Source of the DNA: Hydrolagus affinis
Taxonomy: Eukaryota
Direction of reading: 5' to 3'
Length of the DNA: 64,000 nt
NCBI GenBank assembly: GCA_012026655.1
Contig: JAAILG010001241.1
Coordinates: forward strand, 1 to 64,000
The position numbers were made by a program. Positions 60,001 through 63,000 of this stretch are shown one piece after another. Every line of letters begins with the position of its first letter. Positions within the stretch are counted from its first letter, which is position 1.

Positions 60001-63000
60001 CTTTAAACTCATCATGGGTGACTTGAGCGATGAATTGTATCCGTAACTATTTCTCATTGTTGTGATTGGAGCATTGTTTCATTCTTTTTGGGGGTGGTGT
60101 GTGGGGGGGTGGAGGGGAAACCAAGGAAGGCCCATAATTTCATGACCTAACACGCACAATTCCATTCAAGTGGGGCAAACCTTCTAAGTTAATCCCAAAC
60201 CTTTTACGTTAATGCCTTGCTTTAGCTTGACCTTTAATGAACACTGACGCTCAACACTACAGAGTGGCCATAGAAGGTTTTATTTATCTGAATTACCTTG
60301 GACAATGCCAGTTTGTGAAATGCTATTTTAAAAACTTTCCAGCACCTTTCTAATTAATTGTTTGCAAATGTAGACCATAAAATACAGAGCTTTTTGAGGT
60401 GGTGGCAGGCAAATATCTGTGTAAAAATAATAATTTGGTTGAAATCACTTTGGAAATGGCAAGCAATTGGCAGGAATTTAGATTCTGCAGGCGTTATAAA
60501 TGACACAAATTGATTTTTATTAAAGGGGATTTTCACTTAATAGGTTTAAGGAACATGGAACTATAAGGCTTTGGATAAATAAGATTCTTCTGTGGTAGAA
60601 TGAACCCAAGCATTTTTTTTCTAGCCTTAAATTACACCTCAGGCATTCAGTATGAGCTACTGCTTTGTCTCAGCAAATTTCTATGTACAGTTCAATAATG
60701 TTAAACATAAGTTATCTGTAAAAAACAAGTTAATTATGTAAGTAGAATAACCCATACACTACATGACTGCATTAGGCAGATTCCGTTGCTGAATTGAGCC
60801 GTGTGAAAAGCAAACCAACCTGTTGGACTAATATGAAAGTATTGTGAAACCTCAATTTTTCTTCTGATAAACGTATTTGACATCTGAAGAAATGTCTCAT
60901 TTTTACAGGCCACAGTGCCAGAAAATGATACTGATTGTGTAACAAAGGGATTCTGAATGTGTGATTTTTTTTAATGGATTCAGTGAAATGCAAAAGGAAC
61001 GCTGCAGTAAACCTGGCTCTGACTGGAAGACAAACTGCTCATTCCCCAAAGTTGTTTTGAGGGTACGACTATCAGTGTGCAATAGAGTGAAAGGGAATTA
61101 AGTTTTACTATCTCAAGTGTCTGAAGTTAAGTGGACCCAATCTTCTGCTTGTAAAATTTTCATACTGCAATGTCAATTTAGATTGTGACCCTGGGCAACT
61201 ATAAAGGAGGATTCTGAATGCCTATTAAAATCCATGATGAATGGCTTGTTGCCTTTTGTTGCTTTGCTTGAAATCTGCTGTGATGTTGGAAGGTTCATCA
61301 TGGGCAGTAGTGAACGGACAAACTGCAAAGACCATTTCATAAGTGCACAGCCTGCAATATCATGGGTTTGTGATGGAGTTCTTATGGCCTTCCTTCTCAT
61401 TTCTGCCCAAGTTAAACCTTTTTGGAATGTACTTTAGTCACAGTGCAGCATAGAAAAGAGCCATAGTACAATGCCTTCACTCGTGTTATTAATTATCAAG
61501 CTTGTTTACCATAGAACTCATAATCTATTCCAAAACTGGTCTTCAATATTTAGAATCCCTTAACCATTGTTTTTTTTAAAAAAAAACTGGACACCCTTGG
61601 GTACATAATCAATATGCTTGGACAGTTATCTTGAACGATTAAGCAGATTCATTAAGTGTTTGATAAGCACTAACGTTATCCTAGTTCCATCCCCCCACCC
61701 AAGTTATCTCTTTCCAATGCAAGACTCACTGCCACCGCCCTAGAGAATGGTGCCTTCTTGACAATGCAGATTTAATCCACTATTTTGCCTTTAGATTGGA
61801 ACACAAAGTGAGCCTGCATGCAATTGTCTCTTTCACACTGAAAAGTTTGGCAAGCAAACTATACTAACACAATACCGATGGCTCACTTTAGACTGAGCAG
61901 TACTGATTTGTCTTTTTTCCCCAAAAAATCTTGTTTTATCTGACCATAAACTTGAAAGATGTTGAAGTATATTTTCATCCAAATCTGTTCCTCCCATTAT
62001 TTTGTACAGTGGGTGTCTTGCATTCCTTTCCTTTTTGACGGCCTCTTTAGCACCGGCTGCAGTGAAATAAGCACTTTGTCACCCTCAACGTAAGTAAGTG
62101 CACACAGACTGTTAACTAACCTAGAAATGTTTACCGTGCTGGATTGTGTTGCAGTAAATATCCAACCTGCCAGCCAATGTAATTGATGGCTTGAATTTAC
62201 TAAGACTTGGGAGTGACGATACTGGAGTAGATATAACATGGTTTGGAGGTGGTTTTGAATGCTGATAGGTGAAAATTCAACTTGCAAGTCTGTATAGTCA
62301 ACCAAGAAGGTTTAAAAGCAGCACAATTGAGGTCCAGGTATTGATTGGTAACCTGTGCAAACTGCTCGAGCTTTGCGTGTACGAATCTTTAAGCTTCCAA
62401 CAATATTGCTGCCTTGTAATTCCCCTCCTCCCAATTCCTGATCCGATCGGATTGTAAATCAGATTTAGTCGTCTTCTGGCAAAGATTGGGTCTTTAAAGT
62501 TTTTAAAAGTCTCTGGGTAATCCAACTCAAGTGAACCCAATTTATTGTTGCAGTCATAAGAGGCAATTTGTCAAAGGAGGTCATTGATCCCATAAAATCA
62601 GAAATGCACCATAGGGAATATATACATGCTGTATGTATTGAACCATGTTAGAGACTGTTCCAAGTAAAGATTTGACTATATTCCATCTTTTCAGTGCTCA
62701 ACACTTAATTTTGTGTAGCAATATCTCTGTAACCTTCTGTAAATTTGCTAGAGAAAAATCTCGGGTGACCAGTGCAGAGGATATGCCTTTGGCCCATTTT
62801 TACATTCACCGTAACTCAACTCTGGTTTAACTTGTCACTGCCACTTAAGTAAGTCATGTTGTCAATATCCCTGCCACATTTATTTATGTAGTTACACATA
62901 TGCCTAACTCGCCACTCCTGATAACTCGTCATCGAGCACTTTCTCCCCCCTTGGGGTGATGAGTTATCAGGAGTTAGCCGTGTATATATATTTTCCAAAT

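What the first reader, a model, noticed from the sequence alone, without database searches (positions are those of the whole stretch)
62904..62980. Pre-miRNA-sized 20-bp hairpin in the distal 3' UTR
Seen: 62914-62933 pairs without bulges to 62955-62974, with a 21-nt loop and 61 nt in total, about 410 nt before the polyA signal. Both non-Watson-Crick positions are G-U wobbles on the sense strand (they would be A-C mismatches on the antisense strand), which favours an RNA structure in the git1 mRNA. The loop exposes a GCACTTT miR-17-family seed match. I do not recognise it as a known miRNA or Rfam family. Inference: an undescribed miRNA precursor or a dsRNA-binding element (Staufen/ADAR; localisation or decay). 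One wobble could be simple CpG decay of a DNA palindrome or MITE remnant.
Basis: partly seen in the sequence, partly recalled or inferred. Interest (0 to 1): 0.7.

Follow-up and report, generated by a model that had tools for sequence, protein, structure and literature searches.

The report
Short inverted-repeat hairpin in git1 3' UTR
A real, stable 18-20 base-pair hairpin lies in the far 3' untranslated region of a cartilaginous-fish git1 gene, but it looks like an ordinary short inverted repeat made by a DNA copying error, not a microRNA gene.

Summary
Bases 62914-62933 pair without gaps with 62955-62974 (18 Watson-Crick pairs and 2 G-U), with a 21-nt loop. This is far more than chance gives for this window (0 of 22 shuffles).

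It lies on the sense strand 4.2 kb after the GIT1 stop codon and 409 nt before the first AATAAA. The gene belongs to a cartilaginous fish, not a human.

The microRNA reading fails the tests I could run:
- The secure stem is only 18 bp, or 22 bp at most, against about 35 bp needed.
- The lower helix is unstable in longer contexts.
- There is no CNNC or apical UGU motif.
- No Rfam family matches.

The strand argument is weak. Both strands fold about equally well. One wobble is the expected CpG-to-TpG decay, and the other pair is rarely formed.

The repeat is sharply bounded, occurs once in the window and has no target-site duplication. The best reading is a template-switch type DNA inverted repeat carried passively in the mRNA.

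Its size matches the 19-bp ARF1 Staufen site, so a role as a dsRNA-binding element stays open but untested. Conservation, genome copy number and small-RNA evidence could not be checked. Interest is low.

The parts
62914..62933 (+). 5' arm of the inverted repeat (20 nt); it contains a CpG at 62927-62928
   Evidence: Pair probabilities are 0.78-1.0 for 62914-62931, 0.31 for 62932 and 0.15 for 62933.
62934..62954 (+). 21-nt loop. It holds GCACTTT at 62936-62942 and a C-run/G-run that can form a 4-bp mini-helix competing with the top of the stem.
62955..62974 (+). 3' arm of the inverted repeat (20 nt). Its reverse complement differs from the 5' arm by two transitions, at 62960 and 62956.
   Evidence: (2 mismatches).
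62911..62978 (+). Optional 2-bp G-C extension (62911-62912 with 62977-62978) outside a 1x2 internal loop
   Evidence: Pair probability is only 0.19-0.45.
62886..62991 (+). Weak candidate lower helix. It pairs 62886-62890 and 62893-62897 with 62980-62984 and 62987-62991. A 13-nt one-sided loop (62898-62910) separates it from the stem.
   Evidence: Pair probability is 0.51-0.61 in 161 nt but 0.09-0.26 in 261-561 nt.
58478..58711 (+). Frame holding the last coding exon of GIT1 (match from 58496) and its stop codon at 58709-58711
   Evidence: Pfam GIT1_C, E 1.1e-12. PDB GIT1 chains, E 2.9e-39. tblastn residues 692-762.
58712..63405 (+). Inferred 3' UTR, about 4.7 kb if the first AATAAA is used. 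ATTAAA variants at 60519 and 61224 could end shorter isoforms that lack the hairpin.
   Evidence: Inferred; no transcript data.
63383..63388 (+). First canonical AATAAA after the stop codon

Best explanation
This is a short, sharply bounded inverted repeat that arose at the DNA level. The most likely source is one template-switch error during replication, in which a 20-nt stretch was copied in reverse complement 21 nt from its template. It has since picked up two transitions, one of them a CpG-to-TpG decay.

Because it lies in the distal 3' UTR of git1 in a cartilaginous fish, the long mRNA isoform should carry an 18-20 bp hairpin. It has no dedicated function that can be shown, and it is not a canonical miRNA precursor.

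Shown: the repeat, its statistics, its boundaries, its single copy within the window, the gene context, and the failed miRNA features.
Inferred: the template-switch origin, transcription of the region as UTR, and neutrality.
For: - The arms are 20 nt with 2 transitions.
- There is no inverted similarity outside the arms. The flank-only local score is 12, against a shuffle mean of 14.3, and 292 of 300 shuffles reach it.
- The arm matches only itself and its partner in 64 kb at up to 3 mismatches (2 matches). blastn of 62650-63229 against the window finds no other copy.
- The flanks next to the arms (CGCC on the left, TAGC on the right) are not a target-site duplication.
- The hairpin folds as well in DNA terms (-19 kcal/mol, z -6.9) and on either RNA strand. 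This is what a DNA palindrome gives.
- CpG observed/expected is 0.33-0.36, and the G62928-T62960 wobble lies at the partner of the 5' arm's CpG.
- Published base rates: template switching can create perfect hairpin stems in a single event. In genic regions of the primate-to-human lineage, 53,666 putative events were found. Of these, 31,007 made a new RNA stem and 6,054 were miRNA-sized. Only 57 of the 6,054 (0.9%) are annotated miRNAs (PMC10710096, abstract and sections 5 and 9).
- That study's criterion of an inverted fragment of at least 15 nt is met here.
Against: - No outgroup sequence could be examined. The event cannot be polarised, and conservation, which would argue for function, cannot be excluded.
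- Genome-wide copy number is unknown, so a transposon origin is not excluded.
- Both arm differences keep pairing on the sense strand. That is the direction selection on the RNA would favour, although the neutral probability is 1/4, or 1/2 if only the well-formed pair counts.
- The stem matches the size and make-up of a proven Staufen1 site.
- The published base rates come from primates, not cartilaginous fishes.
Confidence: 0.6

Rival explanations
1. A functional double-stranded-RNA element of the git1 mRNA. An 18-20 bp A-form helix in the 3' UTR would be bound by a dsRNA-binding protein. The likeliest candidate is Staufen (decay or localisation of the long isoform), then ADAR (editing).
For: - The stem is continuous, at 18-20 bp with one or two G-U pairs, and is very stable in every context tested (pairs 1-18 have probability 0.78-1.0).
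- The best-studied Staufen1 site, in the ARF1 3' UTR, is described as a continuous 19-bp stem with Watson-Crick pairs and two GU pairs. That stem is required for binding and for decay (PMC7038937 passages).
- The hairpin lies 4.2 kb downstream of the stop codon on the sense strand.
- Both arm differences preserve pairing on the sense strand.
Against: - There is no evidence of conservation, binding or editing.
- The strand asymmetry is within neutral expectation, and the two strands fold equally well.
- Hairpins of this size arise often without function (PMC10710096 section 9).
- The ARF1 stem encloses about 100 nt (nt 75-93 pair with 194-212), while this loop is 21 nt.
- A search for GIT1 together with Staufen listed 6 papers, none with either term in its title or abstract (listing only).
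Confidence: 0.15
2. A remnant or miniature copy of a transposable element with terminal inverted repeats (MITE-like), inserted in the UTR.
For: Two inverted arms with a short unrelated spacer are the basic shape of such elements. The window does hold other repeat-derived sequence: a tRNA-like Rfam hit at 6456-6527 and an ORF at 54925-55221 that I take for retroelement-derived from memory. A family could easily have no second copy within 64 kb.
Against: - There is no second copy in the window.
- There is no target-site duplication directly next to the arms. Only an offset GCC...GCC exists, which is weak.
- At 61 bp it is very small for a MITE (my knowledge, not a call).
- No repeat library was available to test it.
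Confidence: 0.13
3. A young or non-canonical microRNA precursor processed out of the git1 3' UTR.
For: - The total size (61 nt) and the loop (21 nt) fit a pre-miRNA.
- In a 161-nt fold, a 5+5-bp lower helix brings the 3' side of the stem to about 37 nt.
- Template-switch hairpins do occasionally become miRNAs: 18 human genes (PMC10710096 abstract).
Against: - The continuous stem is 18-22 bp against an optimum of 33-39 nt (PMC5340965 passages).
- A 13-nt one-sided loop sits where Drosha would cut, and the lower helix has probability 0.09-0.26 in longer contexts.
- There is no CNNC in 62975-63010 and no UGU in the apical loop.
- The best Rfam miRNA hit is the plant family MIR8007 at 13.5 bits, against a threshold of 195.
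- Only 0.9% of suitable template-switch hairpins are annotated as miRNAs.
Confidence: 0.03
4. A chance complementarity with no specific origin.
For: Base composition alone predicts about 231 inverted repeats of 20 bp with up to 2 mismatches and a 3-60-nt spacer per Gb. A large genome therefore holds some by chance.
Against: The expectation per 64-kb window is 0.015 for the DNA view and 0.0005 for at least 18 Watson-Crick pairs with the rest G-U. 0 of 22 shuffles reach 20 bp.
Confidence: 0.05

Closest known systems
Template-switch-mutation hairpins (Monttinen, Frilander and Loytynoja 2023, PMC10710096; Monttinen and Loytynoja 2022, PMC8794818)
   Same: A short inverted copy (at least 15 nt) lies next to its template in a transcribed region, giving a near-perfect stem in one step. 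The boundaries are sharp, there is no target-site duplication, and the locus is single copy as far as the window shows.
   Different: The defining evidence, a parent-to-child comparison on a phylogeny, could not be made here. The published cases are from primates and from rRNA.
Staufen1-binding site of the ARF1 3' UTR (PMC7038937)
   Same: A continuous stem of 19 bp (here 18-20 bp) made of Watson-Crick pairs plus two G-U pairs, located in a 3' UTR.
   Different: The ARF1 arms are about 100 nt apart, while this loop is 21 nt. There is no sequence relation. Binding and decay are untested here.
Canonical animal pri-/pre-miRNA hairpin
   Same: The overall size is about 60 nt, the apical loop is at least 10 nt, and it lies in a Pol II transcript.
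   Different: The stem is about 13-15 bp too short. There is no stable lower stem, no CNNC or apical UGU motif and no family match. A fully paired stem without bulges is also unusual for animal miRNAs (my knowledge, not a call).
MITE / terminal-inverted-repeat element
   Same: Two inverted arms flank a short core.
   Different: There is no target-site duplication and no second copy in 64 kb. The element is only 61 bp.

Membership tests
Canonical animal miRNA precursor | Stem of about 35 bp (33-39 nt) from basal junction to apical loop | tested here: not met
   The secure stem is 18 bp, or 22 bp at most with optional pairs. The lower helix lies beyond a 13-nt one-sided loop and has probability 0.09-0.26 in 261-561-nt contexts. 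The rule is from PMC5340965 and PMC10710096.
Canonical animal miRNA precursor | Apical loop of about 10 nt or more | tested here: met
   The loop is 21 nt and partly self-paired in the minimum-energy fold.
Canonical animal miRNA precursor | Processing motifs: downstream CNNC, apical UGU/GUG, basal UG | tested here: not met
   There is no CNNC start in 62975-63010 and no UGU in the loop. The UG at 62887 lies at the base of the weak lower helix but about 25 nt from the stem base on the 5' side. These motifs enhance processing and are not obligatory.
Canonical animal miRNA precursor | Match to a described miRNA family | tested here: not met
   Rfam 15 at gathering thresholds gives no hit at the hairpin. 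At E up to 10 the best hit is MIR8007, 13.5 bits against 195. miRBase and MirGeneDB were not available.
Canonical animal miRNA precursor | Discrete 21-23-nt reads from both arms with 2-nt 3' overhangs | not testable with these tools
   No small-RNA data are available.
Staufen-binding site (ARF1 type) | Continuous A-form duplex of about 19 bp within a 3' UTR | tested here: met
   The stem is 18-20 bp and ungapped. It lies 4.2 kb after the stop codon and before the first AATAAA. UTR status is inferred. The feature is from PMC7038937.
Staufen-binding site (ARF1 type) | Staufen binding and Staufen/UPF1-dependent change in mRNA level or localisation | not testable with these tools
   This needs CLIP or reporter assays.
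Template-switch-mutation product | Inverted fragment of at least 15 nt close to its template, with sharp ends | tested here: met
   The arms are 20 nt with a 21-nt spacer. The flanks show no inverted similarity. The criterion is from PMC10710096 section 5.
Template-switch-mutation product | Ancestral or outgroup sequence lacks the repeat, and one event explains a cluster of at least 5 mismatches | not testable with these tools
MITE / TIR transposon | Multiple copies | tested here: inconclusive
   The window holds only the two arms themselves. The rest of the genome could not be searched.
MITE / TIR transposon | Target-site duplication directly flanking the inverted repeats | tested here: not met
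   The left flank ends in CGCC and the right flank begins with TAGC.

The most novel reading that the evidence does not exclude
A lineage-specific regulatory hairpin, born in one step by template switching, that gives the long git1 mRNA isoform of a cartilaginous fish a Staufen-type (or ADAR-type) double-stranded handle. It would also present a miR-17-family seed match in its loop, so that choice of polyA site would switch this regulation on or off.
Probability: 0.1. Interest if true: 0.4.

Novelty: new member of a known kind. Interest (0 to 1): 0.15.

Why it matters
If it is only a template-switch palindrome, it matters little. It would be one more of the many short hairpins that replication errors scatter through transcribed DNA, and a caution that a hairpin of pre-miRNA size is not a miRNA gene. 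If it were conserved among cartilaginous fishes, it would be a clean, small example of a dsRNA-binding element in the mRNA of a synaptic scaffold gene. It would also be a test case for how new RNA structures are recruited.

Tried and rejected
- **Rfam.** The whole window at gathering thresholds gave 1 hit, a tRNA at 6456-6527 and nothing at the hairpin. Region 62700-63200 at E up to 10 gave 7 weak hits, all far below their thresholds.
- **Longer, decayed inverted repeat around the arms.** Rejected. The flank alignment score is below the shuffle mean.
- **Second copies in the window.** None were found.
- **Wobble strand argument.** Rejected as decisive.
- **Enrichment of the miR-17 seed match.** GCACTTT occurs 3 times in the inferred UTR against 0.33 expected from composition. 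However, 144 of 3,709 distinct 7-mers also occur at least 3 times there, 47 of them with 3 or more G/C. This is not remarkable after the fact.
- **Literature.** GIT1 with Staufen gave 6 papers, none with the terms in title or abstract. GIT1 with miR-17 family names returned mainly reviews and nothing direct in the 10 listed. Listings only; these papers were not read.
- **Minus-strand reading.** A TTTATT (AATAAA on the minus strand) lies at 62879 just beyond the hairpin, but the window has 87 such hexamers. This is no evidence for an antisense transcript.
- **Not attempted.** The bacterial and archaeal genome collection and the phage, plasmid and E. coli collections cannot hold this locus.
- **Unchecked.** Conservation, genome copy number, repeat-library, miRBase and MirGeneDB checks stayed undone. 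Paper supplements are closed; the supplementary tables of PMC10710096 may hold size distributions of template-switch events that I could not see.

Full report
**What is there**

Reading the window confirms the finding letter for letter.
- Bases 62914-62933 pair without gaps with 62955-62974. The loop between them is 21 nt (62934-62954), so the hairpin is 61 nt.
- The reverse complement of the 3' arm differs from the 5' arm at two positions. Both differences are transitions that give G-U on the + strand: G62928-T62960 and T62932-G62956.
- GCACTTT is in the loop at 62936-62942.

**Is it more than chance?**

Yes, at the scale of the window.
- The 77-nt stretch folds at -35.1 kcal/mol with z -7.5, and 0 of 200 shuffles fold as well.
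- It is the longest of 24 ungapped stems of 13 bp or more with a 3-60-nt loop on the + strand.
- It is the best short-range pair among the 11 inverted repeats that the repeat finder lists for the whole window.
- 0 of 22 dinucleotide shuffles of the window give a 20-bp stem. The largest Watson-Crick count in any shuffled stem is 14, against 18 here.
- Among 12,750 sliding 80-nt folds on both strands, it is the second most stable locus, after a GC-rich stretch at 13151-13260.
- Base composition predicts 0.0005 stems of this quality per 64-kb strand, though about 9 per Gb. It predicts about 231 per Gb for a 20-bp DNA inverted repeat with up to 2 mismatches. Such objects are therefore not unique in a large genome.

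**Context**

The + strand carries nearly the whole GIT1 gene.
- A named Callorhinchus milii GIT1 protein gives 18 separate tblastn matches. They cover residues 16-762 from 14457 to 58708, all on the + strand.
- The last two coding frames each hit Pfam GIT1_C.
- The last exon matches solved GIT1 chains at E 2.9e-39 and ends in a stop codon at 58709-58711.
- The best protein relatives of the last exon are GIT1 of cartilaginous fishes: Callorhinchus at 97%, sharks and rays at 93-96%. I therefore take the window for a cartilaginous fish, not human.
- Exons were searched one at a time.
- After the stop codon, the first AATAAA is at 63383, with ATTAAA at 60519 and 61224.
- The hairpin is thus 4.2 kb into an inferred 4.7-kb 3' UTR, 409 nt before the canonical signal. 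Shorter isoforms may lack it. No transcript data were available.

**Anatomy in the ensemble**

Pair probabilities were computed in four contexts of 161-561 nt.
- Pairs 1-18 are secure, at 0.78-1.0.
- The two apical pairs have probabilities 0.31 and 0.15, because the loop's C-run pairs with the G-run that begins the 3' arm. The working stem is 18 bp with one G-U.
- A 2-bp G-C extension below the stem has probability 0.19-0.45.
- In the 161-nt fold, a 5+5-bp A/U-rich lower helix appears beyond a 13-nt one-sided loop. Its probability is 0.51-0.61 there and only 0.09-0.26 in longer contexts.

**Strand**

The wobble argument does not separate RNA from DNA.
- The strict 61-nt hairpin folds at -33.1 kcal/mol on the + strand and -31.0 on the - strand.
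- The 77-nt stretch folds at -35.1 and -35.8.
- The DNA fold is also highly significant, at -19 kcal/mol with z -6.9.
- A transition in a paired position gives G-U on one strand or the other with equal neutral probability. Two on the same given strand has probability 1/4 (my arithmetic).
- T62960 sits where the partner of the 5' arm's CpG would be a CpG, and the sequence is CpG-depleted (observed/expected 0.36 for the window, 0.33 for the UTR). That wobble is the expected CpG-to-TpG decay.

**Origin**

- The repeat is sharply bounded. Outside the arms, the left flank and the reverse complement of the right flank align no better than shuffles. The score is 12 against a mean of 14.3, and 292 of 300 shuffles reach it.
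- There is no target-site duplication directly next to the arms.
- There is no other copy in the window.
- This is the signature described for template-switch mutations. They create a reverse-complement copy next to its template and can make a perfect stem in a single event (PMC8794818 abstract; PMC10710096 abstract and sections 5 and 9).
- In genic regions of the primate-to-human lineage, that work counted 53,666 putative events. Of these, 31,007 made a new RNA stem and 6,054 were of miRNA size. Only 57 of the 6,054 (0.9%) are annotated as miRNAs.
- These base rates make a neutral by-product the default reading.
- A transposon remnant remains possible, because the rest of the genome and repeat libraries could not be searched.

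**miRNA test**

- Here the continuous stem is 18-22 bp and the lower helix is unstable and displaced.
- No CNNC starts in 62975-63010, and the apical loop has no UGU.
- Rfam 15 has nothing at the hairpin at gathering thresholds.
- At E up to 10, the only matches are chance-level: MIR8007 at 13.5 bits against 195, whalefall-1 at 10.8 against 37, and HOXB13-AS1_1 at 10.6 against 60.
- I rate the miRNA reading at about 3%.

**dsRNA-element reading**

- The ARF1 Staufen1 site is described as a continuous 19-bp stem of Watson-Crick pairs and two GU pairs in the 3' UTR. It is required for binding and for decay (PMC7038937 passages). By size and make-up the git1 hairpin resembles it, so it could work like one.
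- That is a resemblance, not a test. There is no evidence of binding, editing or conservation.
- A search for GIT1 together with Staufen found 6 papers, none with the terms in title or abstract (listing only).

**What stayed unchecked**

- Conservation in other git1 UTRs.
- Genome copy number.
- Repeat libraries, miRBase and MirGeneDB.
- Small-RNA and RNA-seq data.

**Verdict**

The miRNA interpretation is not supported. The dsRNA-element reading is open at low probability. The most likely reading is an ordinary template-switch type inverted repeat. Interest is low.

Noticed in passing
window 62071, 62936, 63205 (+): Three GCACTTT (miR-17-family seed match) sites lie in the last 1.4 kb of the inferred git1 3' UTR, against 0.33 expected from composition. 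There are 10 in the whole window against 4.5 expected. However, 144 of 3,709 distinct 7-mers also occur at least 3 times in the UTR.
   Followed up: partly
window 6456-6527 (+): Rfam reports a tRNA hit at 35.2 bits (threshold 29), but ARAGORN finds no tRNA gene in the window. It is perhaps a tRNA-derived repeat (SINE head).
   Followed up: partly
window 13151-13260 (+): This is the most stable 80-nt fold in the window (-42.7 kcal/mol, GC 0.61-0.69). It lies about 1.2 kb upstream of the first mapped GIT1 match at 14457. It may be a 5' exon or CpG-island region. The exon for residues 1-15 was not located.
   Followed up: no
window 20899-20963: An inverted repeat with 30-nt arms, 77% complementary, 5 nt apart. 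It folds to about -30 to -33 kcal/mol on both strands and lies in the intron just after the exon at 20631-20744.
   Followed up: no
window 46249-46264 / 46302-46317: A 16-bp ungapped stem with a 37-nt loop, made of 14 Watson-Crick pairs and 2 central G-U pairs on the + strand. It is intronic and is not listed as a DNA inverted repeat.
   Followed up: no
window 54925-55221 (-): An open frame of 98 aa looks to me like the tail of a retroelement reverse-transcriptase ORF common in shark genomes. That name is recalled, not tested.
   Followed up: no
window 62787-62843 (-): A weak snoU54 (C/D box) Rfam match at 20.5 bits against a threshold of 35, E 0.11, on the strand antisense to the UTR. It is probably chance.
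   Followed up: no
window 62879-62884: TTTATT (AATAAA on the minus strand) lies just beyond the hairpin as read on the minus strand. The window has 87 such hexamers, so this is no evidence for a convergent transcript.
   Followed up: partly
window 40426-40525: A run of 100 N (an assembly gap or masked stretch) inside a git1 intron. It was left alone.
   Followed up: no
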